Source of the DNA: Porphyridium purpureum
Taxonomy: Eukaryota
Direction: 5' to 3'
Length of the DNA: 64,000 bases
NCBI GenBank assembly: GCA_008690995.1
Contig: VRMN01000001.1
Coordinates: forward strand, 1,364,001 to 1,428,000
Shown: positions 2,729-64,000 of the stretch, in pieces
Numbering within the stretch: the stretch's first letter is position 1
Layout of the letters: every line of letters begins with the position of its first letter
The notes under the pieces: model-generated
What the model saw: the letters and a program-made list of their open reading frames with translations, nothing else
Databases searched by the model: none
What the model was told of the DNA's origin: nothing
Position numbers and translations under genes: made by a program

Positions 2729-3381
2729 CCCGGTGTCCTTGCGTGAGAATTGCCGGGAGCAAACGCGGGAGTCGCCGGCTTTTGAAACGTGCTATTCTAT
2801 CGTTGTGGTTGCCCGAACCTGCGTTCTGTGAAGAAGTGCGTCGACGTCAGTCTTCCGTAGGCAACTGCGCTCTGTGACCGTCGCTCGTACTCCATGCTGA
2901 GGTTGCTGCTAGAGTCACTGAATGTGACGGAGGAATCGCGGACAGCGGACGCTCATGGCAGTCCCGCTCCCCGCCACAATGTGCGCCGAGGGAACAAGCC
3001 CACGCCCTCTGGCGCCCCAGCTCTTGCGCGCGTATGCCGTGCGCCATCCCGATCATCTTTCGCAGACGCGGTGGAAGCGCTGCATGCTTGACTTCCAGCG
3101 ATAGCGTGCCGAGCTCGCGCGGGCACAGACAGTGTAAAGCGCGGAGAGCTGTGTTTCGAGCGTGAGTGATAATCTCTAGACACCCGTTTACAGGCGATGC
3201 CAATGGAGCATCACAATCACCATCACCAAACCCCATTACTCCTGCAACGAAATCCGCGTCGTGAAGCGGCCTTCTGATATTCTCGGCTGCACCGGTACTC
3301 ACGAGCCGCTCCACGTCCGCACCAAAGCGCGCCAGCATATTTCTTTTCCTACACCAGCGAGTGCCGAGACGAAAATCCGGA

Positions 3382-4189
3382 CATGGATTAAAAGTGTTCC
3401 GGTCCGAGAGACGCCCTGGGTGTACACCCGGAGGTACGGCGTCTCGGAATTGTTTGAGGTACAGGGGCTTTTTCGCCCGCGTGGTTTTTTACCCTGTACC
3501 TCTGGTTTTGTGTATTGTTGTCTTTCGCCCCGAGGAGCCGGAGTCGCGTGTCCGAGGGAAGCAGGAGCCGCTTGGCGGCCGGCCGGCACCCATTGAGCCG
3601 CTTGCTGACGTGGCTGGCTGTGGCTTCGTTCTGTGGAACGAACGGAGGAAAGCCCAGCCTTTTGGGAGAAATAATTTCTCCCTTCCGCGTCAAGGACAGC
3701 AAGGACGGCGGGGTATATAATGGGCGCGGGCCTGTGCGGTTCCCCGGATTTTCTTTAGAGCGGAAGAAGAGAGGCAAGGGAGTAGGACACAGAGAATAAA
3801 AGAAGAGTTGTTCTTTGGTGTCGGGTGCCTGGGCGTGGTCGTCGGAAGGCGTGGGGCCTTTTGCTGAGCCTGTGTAGCAGAGCCAGCAGCACATCGTGTC
3901 TGGGGGGTTTCGGTGCTCTTAGAGCACTGAAGGCAGACGGCGGCTTTGTCCGTTACGACACCCTGCCCCTGTCGAGACCGGTGCTGTCTGTGCCGACGCG
4001 AAAGGCAATAGTAGAGGCCCTATACGTTGGATTTTCCACGCCCCGGGTATTCGTCGTCTGTGTTGTGTGCGTCGTGTGGTTGTGTTCTCTGTGCTGTGTG
4101 CGTCGTGTTGCTGGGGTTCGGTCATCTGAGAAGGGTTGTGTCATCCGGGTTCGTGCGCTTGTCATCATCAAGCGTGCGAGAATTTAAAG
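3382..4189 (+). repeat. 5' LTR of element 1 (808 bp)
   Basis: Direct repeat of 8574-9383; begins CATGGATT, ends AATTTAAAG; TATATAA at 3714-3720. Confidence 0.95.
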
Positions 4190-4201
4190 TGGTATCATCG
4201 C
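4190..4201 (+). promoter_or_regulatory. Primer-binding site of element 1
   Basis: TGGTATCATCGC directly abuts the LTR end; TGGTATCA is the usual tRNA-iMet-type PBS start; the same 12-mer occurs at 59800-59811. Confidence 0.85.
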
Positions 4202-4211
4202 ATCGGCGAAG

Positions 4212-5168
4212 ATGGATTCTGAGGGAATGGACGTGCAGGGCCTGCAGGGCGGCGCGTCGTGGATTGAAGCTTTCAACCAGCTTCATGCTCGTATCGGAGG
4301 ACAAGAAATGATGATTGTGCAGCTGCAGGAGGGAAACCGCCTCTTGCAGGAGATGCTGCAGAATGTGATGCATCAGGCATCTGTGTCAGCTGGTCCCGGC
4401 GAAACGGAAAGGACCGTTGCATCGCTGATTGGACGCAGCTTGAGAAAATACGACGGACAGCGCGACAAACTCGTTGTGAACGAGTGGTTGTCGAGGATGA
4501 AGCAAGACTTGGACATGTGCATGCCAGCTGGAGCGCTGGAGTCGCAGAAGGTGATCGTAGCGTCGCGCTTCTTTGAGAAGGATGCCGCGCTCCTGTGGGC
4601 AGCTCGCCCTGAGGAACAGAGGATGGCATTGGCCGAGTCCGGTTGGAATGCGTTCGCGAACTTCGTGCGGACGGCATTTGAGCCGCCGCAGGCATACCTG
4701 ACTGCTCGAACGAACTTGTATCAGCTGAAGCAGGGCAAGATGACTGTTGCTGAGTTTGAGCAGCGCCTGAGGATGGTGGCTCTATCCGTGGATAGTGTGA
4801 CGGATGCCGAGCTCAACACCATCTTCACTCTCGGCCTGAAGGAGAAGCTTCGCCTTGAGGTGGCGCGTCAGGACACGAAGACGCTGGAAGAGTCGCTGAG
4901 GGCGGCGTTGGCTGCGGAGCAGGTTGGTAGGTTTGGAGGAGACATGAGGGAGGCTTTTCATGGCGCCTCGAGTCCAAACTACCGGAACAGCTCGTCGTAT
5001 GCCGGGACGGCGCCAATGGATTTGGGCGTCGTGGAGAAACGCCAGCCGGAGAAGCGCAAGCGTGCGGACATGGGCAAAGTCAGATGCTACCATTGCGGGC
5101 AGCGCGGCCACATCAAACCCAATTGCCCAAAGCGGAATGGGCACTTGGCGGGAGGCCCGGAAAACTAA
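4212..5168 (+). CDS. gag: Retrotransposon Gag (capsid-like domain plus CCHC zinc knuckle)
   Basis: KYDG..EWL, LYQLKQGKMTVAEFEQR, PMDLG, and the knuckle CYHCGQRGHIKPNC. Confidence 0.93.
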   Translation: MDSEGMDVQGLQGGASWIEAFNQLHARIGGQEMMIVQLQEGNRLLQEMLQNVMHQASVSAGPGETERTVASLIGRSLRKYDGQRDKLVVNEWLSRMKQDLDMCMPAGALESQKVIVASRFFEKDAALLWAARPEEQRMALAESGWNAFANFVRTAFEPPQAYLTARTNLYQLKQGKMTVAEFEQRLRMVALSVDSVTDAELNTIFTLGLKEKLRLEVARQDTKTLEESLRAALAAEQVGRFGGDMREAFHGASSPNYRNSSSYAGTAPMDLGVVEKRQPEKRKRADMGKVRCYHCGQRGHIKPNCPKRNGHLAGGPEN

Positions 5169-8100
5169 AACCTCGAGGGAGAAGTTGGGAGGTGCACTCG
5201 AGGGGAACGGAACCTCCCGGGATGGGCTTTGTAGGTGAGGTCTGGCGCGCTGATGCGGCGTCGAGGTTGCTCTACAAGCGTGGAACTTTAGATGGCGAGT
5301 CTGTCCAATTTCTGGTGGACAGCGGAGCATCGCACAATTTTCTTGGATCTCGCTTTGTCGGCAGATTTGAAGGGCGCGAGAACGGAATGGTCAAGCTTGC
5401 GGGTGGGCAAAGTGTCTCAGTGCATGGCCCGGTGTTGCAGCATGTTGATCTTGGGTTCTGGAAAGGGCCGGTCAAGTTTTATGTCGGACCTCTGCAAATG
5501 GATGCAATTCTCGGGTGGGACTGGCTGAGTCGCGTGAACCCGAGGATTGATTGGCAGAGGGGTTCGATGGACTTGGAACTTGAAAATGTGGAAGATTGTG
5601 CGATGGTAAATGTCGTGGACGCTCTTTCCGAGTCAAGCGGAAATCAAGCGTACGATGGAGAAGAGGAGAGTGCCAGTGAAGAGGTCGAAGGAAAGATGGC
5701 CGGGATGGAACATGCGTTGACTCACATGCCGATGCGGGATGATTGTGAGACGTGTGTTGTGGCCAAGATCAAGAGCCGACCAGCAAGAAGGCTGGAGAAG
5801 GACTTGTCCACTTTGTCGTTCAATGACGAAGTTGGGATCGACCTGGTGGAGCCCGGACGTAACGTGGAAGCCATCGATGGAGCGAAGTACATGCTGACGC
5901 ACATCGATAGAGCGACGAGGTGGGCCACACTGGCAGGATTGAGAGCCAAAACGCATACGGCGGTTGCTGAAGCTTGGACAAGCGTGCAAGCCGGGCGAGG
6001 ATGGCCAAAGGTACTGAGGACAGATGATGGAAACGAGTTCAGGGGAAATGTGAGCAATTTGGTACGGGAGAATCTCGTGAAGCATGAGATTGGGGTCCCA
6101 CATAGACCGAATAGCCACGCTGAACAGGAACGTTTCCATCATACTTTGAATCAGGGGGTACGAGCAAATCTCCTGCAGTCTGGGCTGGGAAAGCGGTGGT
6201 TTTTGCATGCCGCTCAGCATTTCGTATTCATGTTCAATCGGCTGCACCCAGACAAGAAGTCTGGGAAGTCTCCGTATGAAATGAGGTACGGTGAGAGATG
6301 GAAGCGGGGGAAGGTAGCAGTACCATTTGGGTGCAAGGTGGTTTTCAAGAATGATCAACCGGAGAACAAGTATGCACCCAGAGGAAAGATTGGAGTCCTT
6401 GTTGGAGTTGCGGAGCATCCGCTGGCAATCTGGGTCCTTCCTCAGGAGGAGTGGACGAGTGCGGCACCGAAGCTGACTCGCACTCAGGACTTCAAGGCGT
6501 TCCCTGAAGTGTTTCCAATGCGGACTTTGGAAACAAGGGATGACGAGGAGGTCTCGGCACGTGAGGGTGAAATCGACTTTCACTCTAGGCAGGAAGAACC
6601 GGATAGTCAAGAGACTATGGTGTTGCCTACGAATACGGCCGAGGCGCGTGTATCCGGGAACTTGGAGGAGGATGTTCCCCTACCTATTGGAAGAAGGGGG
6701 AAACGAAAACCCAGGGTATCCTGGAGCCGGGAAGAGGATCAGGCCATCATGGATGGCTTACGGCTCTTTGGCTGGGGGAAGTGGGAAAGAACTCTGCAAG
6801 AATATAAGGCAGTGTTCCGCGATTCAAGAAACGGAAAGGATGTGCGAGCCCGGGCTCATAATATGGGCCTCTCGGAGGAAAATTGGAGGCAACGCGCAGG
6901 AGTTGCTCCAGAAACACCGCAATTGAACTTGACAACTTTGTTGCAGACGAGCCAAGCTCTGGCTTCTTCGGCTGGAAGAGAAGCCATGCAAAAAGAAGTG
7001 GACTTGATGATCCGATTCAAGGTATGGGATGAGCAACCTATTTCAAGGGAAGAAGCTCTCAAGGTCCCAGGCGCACGATTTGTGCGGACACACTTTATAT
7101 TCGGATTGAAGTTCGCTGAGCTTCCGGAGGAGTTTCGCAAGGTCAAGTGTCGGCTTGTTGCTGGTGGAAATAGGATTTGGGATGCCTCAGGGAAGGTCAC
7201 TCAGGATGTGTTTGACTATGAGGTGCCCGCGGGCCTGTCTGCGATCAGAATGCTGATAGCTTTGGCCGCTATCCTAGGATTGAAGATCGTATCGTTCGAT
7301 GTGACGTCGGCGTACTTACACGCTGACTTGTCAGGACCACCGACGTTTGCCATGTTGCCCCGACACGTTCCAGGAGGAGGTGATGGACTTGTCGTTCGCT
7401 TGAGGAGGGCGCTTTATGGCTTGCCAAGAAGCGGGTCTGACTTTTCCCAGGATGCCCGCAGAAGACTTCAAAAGTTCGGGTGGGATTTGATTCACGGCGA
7501 GAAGAACGTATACGTGAAAAAGATGGCGGGAAGTGCATCTGTTGCACTCCTAGCCTTGTATGTCGACGATGGTCTGCTCGCGTGTGTCGAGAAGGATCGG
7601 GGTGAGATATTTCGAGAGTTGAGGTCAGAGTTCCTCATTGAGAAGGAGCCGGAAGTCCTCTCGGAAGGAGCCCCGTTAAGGTTCCTAGGACTCACGATCT
7701 CGGAGTCGGCGACACGGTTTTCGTTGGGTCATGATCACTACCAAGCTTTGGTGGTGAAGGAATTCGAAGAAGAACTTGGGCAGGTGCTGCGAGCGGTGAA
7801 ATCACCAGGTGAGAAGATGAATGCTGACGCTGTATTGGATGTTCAAGTCGAACATGGACATCTGAAAATACGCGAGCATGTCGGGCGGCTGCTGTGGTTG
7901 GCCAGGACGGTCAGACCGGATATCTCCTATGCAGTTGGAGTGGTGGCTCGGTATGTGGATAGCTGGAACGTCGCAGCTGAGAGACTCCTGGTTCGCGTCA
8001 TGCAATACTTGAAGGTGCCTCGTGAGCCACTTGAGTATTTGCAGATGACGTCATTGAAGATCGGCGACGTAAGCGTCTTGGGCTATGCTGATGCCGACTT

Positions 8101-8583
8101 TGCTGGATGCCCGGAAACGCGCAAGTCAACGTCTGGGAGAGTGACGTACTTGGTCGCGGGTGGAAACAAGTATCTGGTCGATTGGAGCTCCAGAAGGCAA
8201 CGCTTTGTGAGCTCTTCGACCTCTGAGTCTGAGATGGCCGCTCTGGAAGAAGCGGTGCAGTTATCTTTGTTTCCGGCATTGTCGTTTCTTCGAAGCGTGC
8301 AAGAGGGGGATTATGCGTTGACCCTGCTTTGTGATAGTCAAGTTGTTCTCCGTGCGGTCGAGATGGGCTACTCGCCAAAGTTGCATCACATGGCAGTGAC
8401 CAGAGCCACGGACTTGGCGTGGATACACCAAGTTTGCGAGAAGCAAAAGCTGGTGAGATTGGAATATGTGAGGACGGGGAAAACGTGTCCGACTTGATGA
8501 CAAAACCTTTGTTTCCGGAAGGTCATATCAGGTGTTGGACTATGTTACGCGTCCCTCAGATCGGAAGGAGGAGCATGGATTAA
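5084..8583 (+). CDS. pol: Pol polyprotein PR-IN-(Myb)-RT-RNase H; 1-nt frameshift near 8476-8480 truncates the annotated ORF at 8497
   Basis: PR LVDSGASHNF; IN HHCC (HALTH..CETC) and D,D,E (GIDLVE, RTDDGNEF, AEQER); Copia-type RT (KCRLVAGG, DVTSAYLHADL, ALYGL, LYVDD, RPDISYAV); RNase H (YADADFAG..RKSTSG, STSESE). Restoring one base gives ..ENVSDLMTKPLFPEGHIRCWTMLRVPQIGRRSMD* ending at 8583, matching element 2. Confidence 0.93.
5159..5220 (+). promoter_or_regulatory. Predicted -1 programmed ribosomal frameshift signal (slippery heptamer plus H-type pseudoknot)
   Basis: G GAA AAC (5159-5165) sits just before the gag stop. 5-nt spacer; stem 1 CCTCGAG 5171-5177 / CTCGAGG 5197-5203; stem 2 GGGAGGT 5187-5193 / ACCTCCC 5212-5218. 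pol is in the -1 frame. Confidence 0.85.
8563..8573 (+). promoter_or_regulatory. Polypurine tract of element 1
   Basis: GGAAGGAGGAG immediately before the 3' LTR; identical at 62288-62298 in element 2. Confidence 0.9.
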
Positions 8584-9383
8584 AAGTGTTCCGGTCCGAG
8601 AGACGCCCTGGGTGTACACCCGGAGGTACGGCGTCTCGGAATTGTTTGAGGTACAGGGGCTTTTTCGCCCGCGTGGTTTTTTACCCTGTACCTCTGGTTT
8701 TGTGTATTGTTGTCTTTCGCCCCGAGGAGCCGGAGTCGCGTGTCCGAGGGAAGCAGGAGCCGCTTGGCGGCCGGCCGGCACCCATTGAGCCGCTTGCTGA
8801 CGTGGCTGGCTGTGGCTTCGTTCCGTGGAACGAACGGAGGAAAGCCCAGCCTTTTGGGAGAAATAATTTCTCCCTTCCGCGTCAAGGACAGCAAGGACGG
8901 CGGGGTATATAATGGGCGCGGGCCTGTGCGGTTCCCCGGATTTTCTTTAGAGCGGAAGAAGAAGAGGCAAGGGAGTAGGACACAGAGAATAAAAGGAAGA
9001 GTTGTTCTTTGGTGTCGGGTGCCTGGGCGTGGTCGTCGGAAGGCGTGGGGCCTTTTGCTGAGCCTGTGTAGCAGAGCCAGCAGCACATCGTGTCTGGGGG
9101 GTTTCGGTGCTCTTAGAGCACTGAAGGCAGACGGCGGCTTTGTCCGTTACGACACCCTGCCCCTGTCGAGACCGGTGCTGTCTGTGCCGACGCGAAAGGC
9201 AATAGTAGAGGCCCTATACGTTGGATTTTCCACGCCCCGGGTATTCGTCGTCTGTGTTGTGTGCGTCGTGTGGTTGTGTTCTCTGTGCTGTGTGCGTCGT
9301 GTTGCTGGGGTTCGGTCATCTGAGAAGGGTTGTGTCATCCGGGTTCGTGCGCTTGTCATCATCAAGCGTGCGAGAATTTAAAG
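8574..9383 (+). repeat. 3' LTR of element 1 (810 bp)
   Basis: By eye differs from the 5' LTR by one substitution and two 1-nt insertions; followed by TSD CCGGA. Confidence 0.95.
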
Positions 9384-10218
9384 CCGGATGCGCACTGTAC
9401 ACCCGTTGGTGTGTGTACCCTTAAACCGCGCGCATTTTTGTATGTGAGCGCGAAAGACAAAGTAACGCTTTCTACGGTGCGTGAGTGCGACGCCGTGGTT
9501 TAATTTTTCAAACTAAGCCACACGGGCGATGGACAAGCATGCGCGTGTCCGCGAAAACAGATGGAAAACAGAAGAAAAAATAAGGGAAAACCCCAAGAAG
9601 AACAAAAACCCCTGCTATGATCCGGGGAAGGGAAAAGCAAGAAAAAAGAGACACGGATCGATGAAAACCATGGTTGGTGAGAAGCTCCTGCCGCTCCTGC
9701 CGCTCCTGCCGCTCCAGTTGCTACAGTCGCAGTGCCGTTGGGTGTGGGTGTGGCTGTGGCTGTGGTGTTAGTACACGCGTGTCTGCGGCTAAAAGGGGGG
9801 AAGAGAATCACGCAGATGGCTCTATGCCCGCCGAGGGAATAGCAGCGTGTCCCCACCGATTTCTACCTCGTGCCAGCAGCTGGCTGTGCAGTGTGTGGAA
9901 GAACGAAGAACGCACACGCGATGCGCTTAGAGCAGGGGGGCGTTGGCCTACACCGTGCCTGCGGCTTCCCGCGTGTGCGATGGTTTACGCGCCCGTTCAG
10001 TCCGGTCTTGGTACACGAATTTGCGCGCGTGGACAGCACGCGTCCGGCATTGAAGAGGTCGCTCAGACGGTAAGTGGCATAAGAAGACGGACGGCGTGTC
10101 GGTGTTCGTCAGGTGCGGGGGACGCAGAGGAGAGTTGGGAACGGCAATAGTCAGGCTGGTGTGGCGGCACGTGCGCGGGAGTATCGAGGGTGGAGACAAA
10201 CGCATCCGATACCGAGCT

Positions 10219-58910: not shown

Positions 58911-59001
58911 CCTCTCTGGCCAGAACTGTACTTCTGCGCTGTACTGGCTGCTAGAACGCGGTTCAGTGCGCTCACGATATGTACACTTGTAGCCATGTGA
59001 A

Positions 59002-59799
59002 CGTGGAATTTTAGGGTTCCGCCCCGAGAGACGCCGTAGGGTTTTGAGTACAAAACCCTAGAAAGTTCTATGATGAAAGATTGTTCGAGAAGCGTGATGA
59101 TCTCGGACCTGCGAAATGTTTGTCATTGTCGTTTTGTGTGGCCTTGTGCAAAGGTCAAAGGCCGGCCGAAGCTTCTGGATTCGTTCTTGACGCGCCCTCC
59201 CGGCCATTTTCCGGATACGTGGCCGGCTGTGGTTGCGAGTTGTGGAACGAATCAAAACCTGTGGTGGAAATTCGTCCTGTTGGAGAAATTTGTTCTCCCG
59301 TCCTTGCTGGAAAGAGCAAGGACGAAGGGTATAAAAGGACGAAGGGGCAAGCTGGTTCCCAGGAATTTCCAGGTCAAGGTAGAAGAAGAGGTAAGGGCAA
59401 ATAGAATAAAAAAGAGAATTGGTTAGTTGGATTGAGGCAGTCGTTGGAAGACTTGGGTTGGATTTGCGGGAGAGGCACGCTAGCGTGTTGTGCGAGCGGA
59501 TATCGGTCTGGAGTGTTTTTAAAAAGGCAGCTGGGGTTTAAACGTACCTTCCATCACCCTTCACTTGTCAAGACCGGTCCACTCCCTCTCGTAGTCCCCT
59601 ATAAGTTGAATTTTCTGTCCTCTCTTCCTTTCTAGCCACTTTTCTCTGATTGTCCCGCTTGTCCTTCCGTTCGTTTCGGTGTGTCGGTTCGTCGTCGGTT
59701 TGTCAGTTTCCGGGGTGTGGCGGTTTCCAGTTCCTGTTATCGGTGAAGCGGTCCGGTTTTGTTGATTCGGTTACAAAGCAGAAAGGGAGAAATTCCAAG
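59002..59799 (+). repeat. First LTR of element 2 (798 bp)
   Basis: Begins CGTGGAATT, ends AATTCCAAG, followed by TGGTATCATCGC; TATAAAA at 59330-59336. Confidence 0.9.
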
Positions 59800-59828
59800 T
59801 GGTATCATCGCCCGGTTGTTTGGAGAAA

Positions 59829-62311
59829 ATGGAAAGCCATGAAATGGAAATGAATGTCCCGCAGGAGAATGCGGCATGGATTGAGGCAGCTAATCAGCTG
59901 CATGCGCGCATTGCGGGACAGGAGATGATGATGGGAATGAGTTCAAGGGAGATGTGGGGAGACTGGTGCGTGAACACCTCATAAAGCACGAGGTGGGGAT
60001 TCCGTACAGGCCAAACAGTCACGCTGAACAGGAGCGGTTTCACCACACGCTGAATCAGGGAATCCGTGCGAATCTTGTGCAGGCCGGACTCGGGAAGCGT
60101 TGGTTCATGCACGCCGCGCAGCATTTTGCGTTCATGACGAATAGACTTCACGTGGGCAGGAAGTCTGGAAAGACGCCGTTTGAATTACGACATGGTGAAA
60201 AATGGTCGCCGAGAAATCTTAGTTTGCCATTCGGGTGCAAGGTGGTCTACAAAGATGATCAGCCTGACAATAAGTATGCACCGCGAGGAAAAGTTGGCAT
60301 TCTCGTCGGCGTTGGAGAGCATCCGATGGCACTTTTGGTGCTTCCTCGGGATGACTGGACGAGTGAGACCCCAAAAGTAATTCGCACTCAGGATTTTAAG
60401 GCATTTACCCATGAGTTCCCTTTAAAAGGAATTGAACGAGAGATGGTGAGCCTTAGCCAGCAGGAAGAGTTGCCAGAAGTGGACGAACCATCCGCGGTTG
60501 AAGCGGTGCAGGACTTGGATCGTCGTATCGATGCTCTCAGAACTAGAGAAGCGGAGCTTGAGAAAGAGATCGAGGCATTGAAAGTGAGGGTGGTTGACGA
60601 AGAACGGGCAGCAGGCACGGGTGGTCCAGTGGCGATCCCACAGTTGAACTTGACGACTTTGCTGAAAACTGGAGCGGCGTTGGCGTCTGAGCAAGGACGA
60701 GCCGCGATGGAAAAAGAAGTCAAATCCATGCTGAAATTTGGGGTATGGGATGAGAGTCCCTTGACGCTGGAGGAGGCCCGGAGGCAACCTGGTGCTCGTT
60801 TCGTACGCACACATTTCATTTTCGGTCTGAAATTTGCTGAGATGCCGGAAGAATTTCGCAAGGTGAAGTGCCGCTTGGTGGCCGGGGGAAACAGGATATG
60901 GGGGTCCGATGGAGCTGCGACGAATGACATTTTTGATTATGAGACGCCTGCTGGTTTGTCAGCTATCCGAATGATAATAGCTGTGGCTGCAATTCTGGGC
61001 CTTCAGATTGTTAGCTTCGACATCAGTTCGGCATACCTCCATGCGGACCTGTCTGGGCCACCTACGTTTGCATATTTACCGCGTGAAATTTGTGATTCAA
61101 AAGGCACAGTAGTCAGGCTGAGAAAGGCGCTGTATGGCTTGCCCAGGAGCGGCTCGGATTTCTCACAAGATGCTCGGAGGAGATTGCAAAAGTTCCAGTG
61201 GAAGCTCGTGCATGGTGAAAAGAATGTGTACGTCCGGAGAAATGCTGCAAGTTCGTCAGTTGCATTGCTGGCTCTGTACGTGGATGATGGTCTATTAGCC
61301 TGTCGAGAGGAGGAACGCCCAGGAATCATCGAAGAATTGAAACAAGAGTTTCTCATGGAAAAAGCACCAGAACTATTGACGGAAGGGGGATCCTTGAGAT
61401 TCCTGGGGACGAGCATTTCCCTCAAAAATGGGAGCGTGAGTTTGGCGAATCAAGAGTATCAAGATGTGGTCGTTCGGGAATTTGAGCAGGATATTAGACG
61501 CGTATTGCGTGCCGTGAAGTCACCATCTGAGAAGCTAGATGGCGAGGAAGTTCTGAATTATCAAGTCATCTGGAAGACTTTGAAAGTAAGAGAACACGTC
61601 GGGAGGCTGATGTGGCTCGCCAGAACGGTTCGACCTGACATTGCGTATGCAGTCGGTATGATTGCCCGGTACGTTGACAAGTGGAATATGGCAGCAGAAA
61701 GGCTGCTCGTACGAGTCGTGCAGTATTTGAAAACACCTCGGGAAGCATTGGAGTATCACGTGTTGGGGAATCTCAAGGAAGGCATCAGAGGGGTGAACAT
61801 TGTTGGATACACGGATGCTGACTTTGCTGGTTGTCCAGAGAGTCGTGTGTCGACTTCTGGAAGAGCAACGTACTTAGTTGCTGGAGATTACAAGTACCTA
61901 GTGGATTGGTCTTCAAGAAAGAAGCGTTTCGTGAGCTCGTCGACTTCAGAGTCGGAGCTGGCCGCCCTAGAGGAAACTGTGCAACTCTCGTTGTTTCCTG
62001 CATTGTCTTTCTTGCGAAGTATACGTGACGGAGAGTTCTCGGTGATTTTGATGTGTGACAATCAAGCTGTGATGCGAGTAATAGAGATGGGGTACTCGCC
62101 AAAGTTGCATCATATGGCGATAACCCGAGCAACAGATTTGGCCTGGTTGCATCAGGTGTGCGAAAAGCAGAAACTTGTGAAACTGGTATTTGTGAAGACG
62201 GACGAAAATGTGGCGGACTTAATGACCAAGGCCTTATTTCCGGAGGGCCACATTAAGTGCTGGGAGAAGTTACGCGTCCCTCAGACCGGAAGGAGGAGCG
62301 TGGAATTTTAG
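59829..62311 (+). pseudogene. pol: gag N-terminal stub fused out of frame to a 5'-truncated pol (half IN, coiled coil, intact RT-RNase H)
   Basis: WIEAANQLHARIAGQEMM (gag) joins DDGNEFKG (integrase) at 59924-59933; ORF 59954-62311 aligns with element 1 Pol. Confidence 0.9.
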
Positions 62312-63077
62312 GGTTCCGCCCCGAGAGACGCCGTAGGGTTTTGAGTACAAAACCCTAGAAAGTTCTATGATGAAAGATTGTTCGAGAAGCGTGATGATCT
62401 CGGACCTGTGAAATGTTTGTCATTGTCGTTTTGTGTGGCCTTGTGCAAAGGTCAAAGGCCGGCCGAAGCTTCTGGATTCGTTCTTGACGCGCCCTCCCGG
62501 CCATTTTCCGGATACGTGGCCGGCTGTGGTTGCGAGTTGTGGAACGAATCAAAACCTGTGGTGGAAATTCGTCCTGTTGGGAAATTTGAATTCTCCGTCC
62601 CGCTGGAAAGAGCAAGGACGAAGGGTATAAAAGGACGAAGGCGTTGGTTCCCAGGAACTGCGTCAAGGGGTAGAAGAAGAGGGGCAAGAAATAAAAAGAG
62701 AATTCAATAGCTAATTGAGCATTAGCCGGAAGACTTGGGTTGGATTTCAGGAGAGGCACGCGAAGCGTGCTGTGCGAGCGGGATATCGGTCTGGAGCGTT
62801 TTTAAAAAAGGCAGCTAATTTAAACAAAACCTTCCATCACCCTTCACTCTAATAAGACCGGTCCACTCTCCTCGTAGTCCCCTATAAGCTGGAATTTTCT
62901 TGTCCCTCTTCTAGCCACCTCTTTCTGATTGTCCCGCTTGTCCTTCCGTTCGCTCTCGGTGTGTCGGTTCGCCGTCGGCCTTGTCAGTTCTGGGTGCGGC
63001 GGCTCTCAGTCCTGCTATCGGTGAAGCGGTCCGGCTCTTTTGCTGATCTGGTTACAAAGCAGAAAGGGAGAAATCGC
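62299..63077 (+). repeat. Second (shared) LTR of element 2; 3' end and PBS degraded
   Basis: Repeat of 59002-59799: near identical for about 280 bp, then many small indels. Confidence 0.85.
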
Positions 63078-64000
63078 GGTAATTACCGCCCGGTTGTTTG
63101 AGAAAATGGAAAGCCATGAAATGAGGCACGAATGTCCCAGTAGTGAGGAAAATGCGGTGATGGATTAGGCAGCTAATCAGCTGCATGCGCGCATTGCGGG
63201 ACAGGAGATGATGATGGGAAATGAGTCTGCTGGAGATGGGGAGATTCGGAGAGGCAGAACACCTCATAAAGCACGAGGTGGGGATTCCGTACAGGCCAAA
63301 CAGTCATGCTGAACAGCAGCGGTTTCACCACACGCTGAATCAGGGAATCCGTGCGAATCTTGTGCAGGCCGGACTCGGGAAGCGTTGGTTCATGCACGCC
63401 GCGCAGCATTTTGCGTTCATGACGAATAGACTTCACGTGGGCAGGAAGTCTGGAAAGACGCCGTTTGAATTACGACATGGTGAAAAATGGTCGCCGAGAA
63501 ATCTTAGTTTGCCATTCGGGTGCAAGGTGGTCTACAAAGATGATCAGCCTGACAATAAGTATGCACCGCGAGGAAAAGTTGGCATTCTCGTCGGCGTTGG
63601 AGAGCATCCGATGGCAATTTTGGTGCTTCCTCGGGATGACTGGACGAGTGAGACCCCAAAAGTAATTCGCACTCAGGATTTTAAGGCATTTACCCATGAG
63701 TTCCCTTTAAAGGGAATTGAACGAGAGATGGTGAGCCTGAGCCAGCAGGAAGAGTTGCCAGAAGTGGACGAACCATCCGCGGTTGAAGCGGTGCAGGACT
63801 TGGATCGTCGTATCGATGCTCTCAGAGCTAGAGAAGCGGAGCTTGAGAAAGAGATCGAGGCATTGAAAGTGAGAGTGGTTGACGAAGAACGGGCAGCAGG
63901 CACGGGTGGTCCAGTGACGATCCCACAGTTGAACTTAACGACTTTGCTGAAAACTGGAGCGGCGTTGGCGTCTGAGCAAGGACGAGCCGCGATGGAAAAA
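63078..64000 (+). pseudogene. Second copy of the deleted internal region (partial)
   Basis: Repeats about 59810-60714, including the same gag/IN junction. Confidence 0.88.

What the first reader, a model, noticed from the sequence alone, without database searches (positions are those of the whole stretch)
3377..9388. Non-canonical C...G element ends: the two bases outside TG...CA seem to be integrated
Seen: TSD CCGGA fixes element 1 ends as CA-TGGA... and ...TTAA-AG. Element 2 reads CG-TGGAATT ... AATTCCA-AG, a perfect 7-bp TG...CA inverted repeat plus two extra bases at each end, and the CG is also present at its left junction. Established: retroviral and Ty3 integrases trim such dinucleotides and join at CA-3'. 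Inference: this integrase joins untrimmed ends, which let the internal CA decay to AA in element 1. LTR finders requiring TG...CA would miss the family.
Basis: partly seen in the sequence, partly recalled or inferred. Interest (0 to 1): 0.75.

Follow-up and report, generated by a model that had tools for sequence, protein, structure and literature searches.

The report
Red-algal hybrid retrotransposon with C...G ends
Two families of jumping genes in a single-celled red alga sit in the genome with ends reading CA or CG at the left and AG at the right, two bases outside the usual TG...CA register, likely because their Copia-type integrase pastes in the copied DNA without trimming it, and they carry capsid and protease genes that look borrowed from the rival Gypsy group.

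Summary
Element 1 (3382-9383) has near-identical LTRs whose shared sequence runs CA-TGG...TTAA-AG against a single 5-bp duplication, CCGGA. Public contigs of other samples break at the same bases in both families: family-2 LTR contigs span exactly 59002-59799, and one family-1 junction reads AG|5 bp|CA. One of six family-1 right junctions shown stops two bases earlier. The GTGAA check could not be run.

The enzyme order is protease-integrase-RT-RNase H, so this is Copia-type, not Ty3, and yeast Ty1 already joins untrimmed ends. What differs is the joined end, A-N-G-3' instead of CA-3'. Primer site and polypurine tract touch the LTRs with no spacer, so blunt joining is likely (0.7); cDNA ends were not seen.

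Added finding: gag and protease are Ty3/Gypsy-type on a divergent Copia integrase-RT. Database names give Porphyridium purpureum. Non-TG...CA ends are a known class, but I found no Copia described with C...G ends. Unchecked notes of this scan report odd Copia ends and one similar hybrid in other genomes.

The parts
3377..3381 (+). Left copy of the 5-bp target-site duplication CCGGA (element 1)
3382..4189 (+). 5' LTR of element 1, 808 bp, CA-TGGA...TTTAA-AG; TATA-like box at 3714-3720
4190..4201 (+). Primer-binding site TGGTATCATCGC, no spacer to the LTR; identical in family 2; probably initiator tRNA-Met (inferred, the tRNA was not seen)
   Evidence: no tRNA gene in the window
4212..5168 (+). 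gag, Ty3/Gypsy-type capsid with one CCHC knuckle
   Evidence: Pfam Retrotrans_gag 1e-10, Ty3_capsid 2e-8; atlas 0.96; profile hits dArc and PEG10
5165..8497 (+). pol in the -1 frame to gag (start approximate): protease of ILG type (about 5282-5533), integrase with short HHCC finger and DD35E (about 5714-6550), Myb-like insert (6713-6862), Copia RT (7076-7768), RNase H. This copy shifts frame near 8478; other copies read on to a stop at 8581-8583 inside the 3' LTR
8563..8573 (+). Polypurine tract GGAAGGAGGAG, no spacer to the LTR; identical in family 2
8574..9383 (+). 3' LTR of element 1, 810 bp, same ends
9384..9388 (+). Right copy of the duplication CCGGA
58997..59001 (+). Host flank GTGAA, expected duplication of element 2 (partner not seen)
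59002..59799 (+). 5' LTR of element 2, CG-TGGAATTT...AAATTCCA-AG
59800..59811 (+). Primer-binding site of element 2, no spacer
59812..62287 (+). Shortened interior of element 2: gag start joined to mid-integrase, then RT and RNase H (about 2.5 kb against about 4.2 kb in other samples)
62288..62298 (+). Polypurine tract of element 2
62299..63077 (+). Second LTR of element 2 (end approximate): starts CG-TGG, 96-100% like the first for 300 bp, then about 80% with indels; followed by a second shortened interior to the window end

Best explanation
These are two young, multi-copy LTR retrotransposon families with a Copia-type integrase, RT and RNase H and a Gypsy-type gag and protease, whose integrated ends are C-[A/G]-TGG...A-AG beside a 5-bp duplication, likely because the integrase joins the blunt cDNA without trimming. 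Shown: the ends, the 5-bp duplication, no spacer between LTR and either primer site, G as the last base of all four joined strands (A-N-G-3'), the domain mosaic. Inferred: tRNA priming at the primer site and RNase H cuts at the two primer boundaries fix the cDNA ends; the integrase transfers the terminal G-3'OH across a 5-bp staggered cut, as Ty1 does with CA-3'; the TG/CA two bases inside is no longer the joining point, so its C can vary. The integrase loop before the catalytic glutamate differs from ordinary Copia across the whole clade, which may be what allows a non-CA end (inferred).
For: Ends fixed three ways: LTR-LTR homology, the only 5-bp duplication among 81 offset pairs, contigs of other samples. 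Primer site and polypurine tract abut the LTRs in both families, leaving nothing but primer-derived bases to trim. Canonical joining at CA-3' is impossible at family 1's right end, which has AA or GA there. Integrase profile's best solved match is a 635-residue integrase (7z0h_W, 1e-10; Ty1's, as I recall), and RT is RVT_2. Ty1 joins blunt ends without processing (PMC8487063, PMC2939329, passages). Control: 9 complete ordinary Copia loci show TG...CA/TA directly against a 5-bp duplication and their primer site. Loop motif N-G in 17 of 17 ordinary Copia integrases but 1 of 31 in this clade.
Against: No cDNA end or circle junction was seen, so blunt joining is inferred from geometry. One of 6 family-1 right junctions shown (run X6) leaves at 4187 and continues CGTTT, which is a trimmed or clipped end or an AG-to-CG change; its left partner is not visible. 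188 loose-end rows were not shown. Only one duplication pair was read in full. Some Copia do trim their ends (Tnt1: title only, in the reference list of PMC3907296; paper not held), so the ancestral state of this clade is open. No DNA with LTR pairs was obtained for any other member of the clade.
Confidence: 0.7

Rival explanations
1. The integrase still trims, but at a shifted position: the cDNA carries one or two primer-derived bases (T from the tRNA end, A/G from the polypurine tract) outside C...G, which are removed before joining at G-3'.
For: Genomic sequence cannot show bases that are removed. Trimming exists in retroviruses and Ty3 (PMC8487063, passage) and is reported for the Copia element Tnt1 (title only). 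The catalytic DD35E is intact.
Against: Both primer boundaries coincide exactly with the integrated ends in two families about 65% identical in pol, which blunt synthesis explains without an extra step.
Confidence: 0.15
2. Nothing was ever trimmed in this lineage and the inner TG...CA is not a relic: the clade has its own end motif N-N-T...A-N-N, recognised by a changed integrase, and element 2's TG...CA is part of a longer inverted repeat that starts at the terminal C. This is compatible with blunt joining and rivals only the 'relic of trimmed ends' story.
For: The repeat in element 2 matches 9 of 10 from the true ends. The right ends keep AAG, not CA. The left bases are also pol codons, AGC RTG GA. 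The loop change is clade-wide, not confined to families with Gypsy gag. Errantiviruses end AGT...AnT (PMC5408687, section 4); unchecked scan notes give AGT...ACT and AAT...ATT for protist Copia.
Against: TG sits at positions 3-4 in both families and CA at the mirror position in family 2, exactly the register of an unprocessed retroviral end.
Confidence: 0.4
3. Artefact: the extra bases are chance or assembly noise and the true ends are TG...CA/AA.
For: Element 2's region is noisy and probably misassembled; one junction leaves at 4187.
Against: Joint chance about 5e-6 at element 1; 13 of 13 left and 7 of 8 right junction contigs shown keep the extra bases; no duplication abuts TG/AA.
Confidence: 0.02

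Closest known systems
Yeast Ty1 (Ty1/Copia, Pseudoviridae); PMC8487063 and PMC2939329, passages
   Same: Protease-integrase-RT-RNase H order, 5-bp duplication, no 3' processing needed, ends that are the cDNA ends.
   Different: Ty1 ends in TG...CA and needs CA-3' for efficient joining; here all joined ends are A-N-G-3', TG/CA lies two bases inside, and gag and protease are Gypsy-type.
Non-TGCA Copia of plants (Tos17, TARE1, AtRE1, lotus groups); 10.1101/137141 and PMC9804982, passages
   Same: Copia enzymes, non-canonical ends, missed by motif-bound finders.
   Different: Those are point changes within TG...CA, the first base always T and the last A or T; here the ends are shifted outward by two bases and read C...G.
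Troyka LTR retrotransposons; PMC12440569, abstract and sections 5 and 14
   Same: C...G ends; element 2 also starts CG.
   Different: Troyka ends CGCCA...TGGCG, makes 3-bp duplications, is animal and allied to the Gypsy/retrovirus side; here 5-bp duplication, ...AAG, Copia RT.
Drosophila errantiviruses; PMC5408687, section 4
   Same: Ends with T at position 3 and A at the mirror position (AGT...AnT).
   Different: Gypsy-group elements; the review leaves their processing unclear.
GalEa and CoDi Copia of red algae, animals, fungi and diatoms; PMC3587641, PMC5445492, PMC2806351, passages
   Same: Copia order, 5-bp duplication (GalEa), primer site directly after the LTR; GalEa-like elements are reported from Porphyridium cruentum; 3 of 26 CoDi families lack TG/CA.
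   Different: GalEa has TGT...CA ends, primer site TGGTAGCAGAGC and an HX4HX30CX2C finger; here C...G, TGGTATCATCGC and a much shorter finger. No GalEa or CoDi reference was in my trees.

Membership tests
Ty1/Copia superfamily | Integrase upstream of RT (PR-IN-RT-RH) | tested here: met
   Pfam positions 118-201, 316-393, 716-946 in one frame
Ty1/Copia superfamily | Copia-type RT/RNase H and integrase | tested here: met
   RVT_2 8e-17 and 7e-19; 49 homologues nearly all RVT_2; trees place it in a divergent clade apart from ordinary Copia (FastTree, midpoint-rooted)
Ty1/Copia superfamily | Copia-type protease (LLS motif, PMC2774666) and gag | tested here: not met
   ILG-type motif in 5 of 5 families with this gag; LLS-type in 14 of 17 other proteins with a detected catalytic motif, none called in 3; gag and protease profiles score at most about 11 bits on Copia relatives, one short protein (P0141, 43 bits) excepted
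Ty1/Copia superfamily | TG...CA ends with 4-6 bp duplication | tested here: not met
   5-bp duplication met; ends are CA/CG...AG
Ty3/Gypsy superfamily | Gypsy-type RT with integrase downstream (or Gmr1 order with Gypsy RT) | tested here: not met
   RT is RVT_2, no RVT_1 hit
Ty3/Gypsy superfamily | Ty3-type capsid and ILG protease | tested here: met
   Ty3_capsid, Retrotrans_gag, Asp_protease_2; dArc, PEG10, Ddi1, ASPRV1 hits at 1e-2 to 1e-6; no donor lineage found
Troyka | CG...CG ends and 3-bp duplication | tested here: not met
   right end AAG, duplication 5 bp
GalEa clade | TGT...CA ends, primer site TGGTAGCAGAGC, long HHCC spacing | tested here: not met
   against PMC5445492 and PMC3587641 passages
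GalEa clade | RT/RNase H groups with GalEa references | not tested
Ty1-like non-processing integrases (mechanism) | Blunt cDNA joined without 3' trimming | not testable with these tools
   zero spacers fit it; needs cDNA ends or an in vitro assay

The most novel reading that the evidence does not exclude
A Gypsy element swapped its RT-RNase H-integrase for those of a non-trimming Copia but kept its own LTRs, primer sites, gag and protease. The hybrid now integrates Gypsy-style cDNA whole, so the two bases that Gypsy would trim became permanent ends. Module swapping between superfamilies would then be a direct origin of non-TG...CA termini, and other N-N-T...A-N-N ends (AGT...ACT, AAT...ATT) may be frozen untrimmed ends too. 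Prediction: in this alga, families with Gypsy gag end NN-TG...CA-NN, while sister families with ordinary Copia gag and integrase end TG...CA.
Probability: 0.25. Interest if true: 0.78.

Novelty: new variant of a known kind. Interest (0 to 1): 0.55.

Why it matters
CA-3' is the near-universal joining signal of LTR elements, and yeast Ty1 integrase works poorly without it. Two young families that join A-N-G-3', with the old register visible two bases inside, give a natural test of how integrases recognise ends and of whether trimming and CA recognition can be uncoupled. The Gypsy-gag/Copia-enzyme mosaic crosses a marker (protease ILG versus LLS) used to separate the superfamilies. In practice, finders set to TG...CA or to T-starting motifs would miss or mis-trim these families in a cultured alga where insertion sites differ between samples.

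Tried and rejected
No whole genome is held, so copies could not be collected from the assembly. No relatives in viral contigs or genome contigs. The metagenome scan (best 80 of 124 loci kept) gave no LTR pair from this clade: loci in the RT tree fall outside it (106 of 142 RT hits long enough to use); L001 and L002 resemble the clade but show no usable LTR pair. Of 27 loci with a flanking repeat I examined 16; 9 were complete ordinary Copia (8 called by script, L028 by eye) and served only as a control. Searches for a donor of gag or protease returned only the element itself. A single-sequence gag model was poor (pLDDT 50) and its fold search found nothing. No significant hairpin after the gag stop (z -0.33), so the -1 frameshift rests on frame geometry only. 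Hand-decoding of two-contig consensus rows could not pair left and right flanks. Element 2's left flank was uncovered in 4 of 4 runs, which proves nothing. Retention of a 5' flap after normal trimming was rejected by reasoning: the extra bases lie on the joined strand. Contig depths were not used as copy numbers. Literature: 10 full-text searches found no description of these families, of C...G Copia ends or of a Gypsy-gag Copia; Repbase, GyDB and subscription journals were not searchable and no supplement was read, so they may be catalogued there (also the motif tables of 10.1101/137141, whose supplements are closed). PMC5776459 and PMC12130899 (passages) gave nothing on termini.

Full report
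What is there. The window is compact eukaryotic DNA; a pol search returns a 100% match labelled Porphyridium purpureum, a red alga. Element 1 spans 3382-9383. Its LTRs (808 and 810 bp) differ at three places, and their homology starts at CA-TGGA and ends at TTTAA-AG. CCGGA flanks both sides and is the only 5-bp duplication among 81 offset pairs. Element 2 begins at 59002 with CG-TGGAATTT and its first LTR ends AAATTCCA-AG at 59799. In both families the primer site TGGTATCATCGC follows the LTR directly and the tract GGAAGGAGGAG precedes it directly.

Independent test. Contigs of seven public runs were laid on one LTR of each family. Family 1 (24 of 212 loose-end rows shown): all 6 left-junction contigs leave at 3381/3382; 5 of 6 right-junction contigs leave at 4189/4190, one at 4187. 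A contig in run X6 starts exactly at 3382. A contig in X2 joins LTR end to LTR start through five bases (AG|TTTGT|CA). Another follows the host flank to 3381 and goes on for 353 other letters, as an empty allele would; those letters were not shown. A short-LTR derivative about 90% alike also runs from CATGG to 4189. Family 2: the LTR lies at exactly 59002-59799 on one contig in 3 of 4 runs; 7 of 7 left and 2 of 2 right junction contigs keep CG and AG. Breaks one to three bases outside the LTR are chance matches to the window's flank. As a control, 9 complete ordinary Copia loci gave TG...CA/TA directly against 5-bp duplications.

What it is. The enzyme order is protease, integrase, RT (RVT_2), RNase H, which is Copia, not Ty3. 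RT and integrase fall in a divergent clade with several more families of the same alga and unnamed transcriptome and metagenome proteins. The clade has a short HHCC finger, an intact DD35E and a changed loop before the catalytic glutamate: N-G in 17 of 17 ordinary Copia integrases, 1 of 31 here. Gag and protease are of another kind: Ty3_capsid, Retrotrans_gag and Asp_protease_2 in Pfam, Ty3-capsid clusters in the atlas, dArc, PEG10, Ddi1 and ASPRV1 among solved structures (E 1e-2 to 1e-6, weak singly). The protease has the ILG motif; PMC2774666 (passages) says Copia proteases, with very few exceptions, have LLS. Relatives outside these families have LLS-type motifs in 14 of 17 cases. Three sister families in the same alga carry ordinary Copia gag, protease and integrase on RT of this clade, so modules have been swapped more than once. 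No donor was found. The two protein clusters hold 17 and 16 members, fragments included.

How it likely works. With no spacer at either primer site, the cDNA that RT makes should end where the integrated copy ends. The last bases of the four joined strands are AAG, AAG, ATG and ACG, so the integrase transfers a terminal G. Ty1 integrase joins blunt ends without processing but depends on CA-3' (PMC8487063, PMC2939329, passages). The simplest reading is Ty1-like blunt joining with changed end recognition (0.7). The C of the inner CA varies (TTTAAAG, TTTGAAG, TTCCAAG) while AAG is kept, so CA is not the joining signal at that end. Against this: no cDNA was seen, one junction stops two bases early, and trimming of primer-derived bases outside C...G cannot be excluded (0.15). 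Whether the inner TG...CA is a relic of once-trimmed ends or part of a lineage motif N-N-T...A-N-N is open. The left bases also encode the last pol residues, because the reading frame stops inside the 3' LTR.

Comparison. Non-TG...CA ends are known. Plant cases keep T first and A or T last (10.1101/137141, PMC9804982, passages). Troyka has CG...CG but 3-bp duplications and Gypsy-side enzymes (PMC12440569, sections 5 and 14). Errantiviruses have AGT...AnT (PMC5408687, section 4). Three of 26 CoDi families lack TG/CA (PMC2806351, passage). GalEa-like elements are reported from Porphyridium cruentum but have TGT...CA ends and another primer site (PMC3587641, PMC5445492, passages). End trimming in the Copia element Tnt1 I saw only as a title in the references of PMC3907296. 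Ten searches found no account of these families or of C...G Copia ends; Repbase and GyDB could not be searched. Unchecked notes of this scan describe AG...CT and AAT...ATT Copia ends and one Gypsy-gag/Copia hybrid in other genomes; they are leads, not support.

Verdict. Real, reproducible and outside the described motif sets, but a variant of a known class whose core step has a precedent in Ty1. It works like Ty1; it is Copia by its enzymes and fails Copia membership on gag, protease and termini. Interest 0.55. The boldest reading left open is that a Gypsy shell took over a non-trimming Copia enzyme set and so froze its untrimmed ends (probability 0.25).

Noticed in passing
window 4212-5590: Ty3/Gypsy-type gag and ILG protease, in a -1 frame arrangement, sit on Copia integrase-RT-RNase H; shared by five families of this alga.
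   Followed up: yes
proteins P0245, P0247, P0248: A second mosaic in the same alga: ordinary Copia gag, protease and integrase joined to RT-RNase H of the divergent clade.
   Followed up: partly
window 8572-8583 and 62297-62311: The pol frame runs through the polypurine tract and stops inside the 3' LTR, so the LTR's first bases are coding.
   Followed up: partly
window 6713-6862: Myb-like domain between integrase and RT in family 1 (also in P0088 and weakly P0245), absent in family 2; could be a targeting module.
   Followed up: no
run X2 contig laid on window 4190/3382: Two family-1 LTRs head to tail with five bases between, as if two copies used the same target site.
   Followed up: no
runs X1, X6, X10 laid on window 3382-3422 and 4050-4189: A derivative with an LTR of about 180 bp (627 bp missing), about 90% alike, keeps the same ends.
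   Followed up: partly
window 59812-64000: Element 2 lacks most of gag, the protease and half the integrase, twice in tandem, with noisy sequence at the joins; other samples have a 4.2-kb interior. Probably an assembly artefact.
   Followed up: partly
window near 8478: Element 1 shifts frame at the end of RNase H in a G run, unlike other copies; sequencing error or a fresh mutation.
   Followed up: no
L001:608-6585: A metagenome relative of the clade reads gag, protease, RT C-part and RNase H, integrase, then RT N-part: a permuted order, either misassembly or a rearranged element.
   Followed up: no
protein P0066: A gene model of another copy runs past the LTR end as ...REFKGEV, which fits an AG end at a further site (weak: the model may be spliced).
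   Followed up: no
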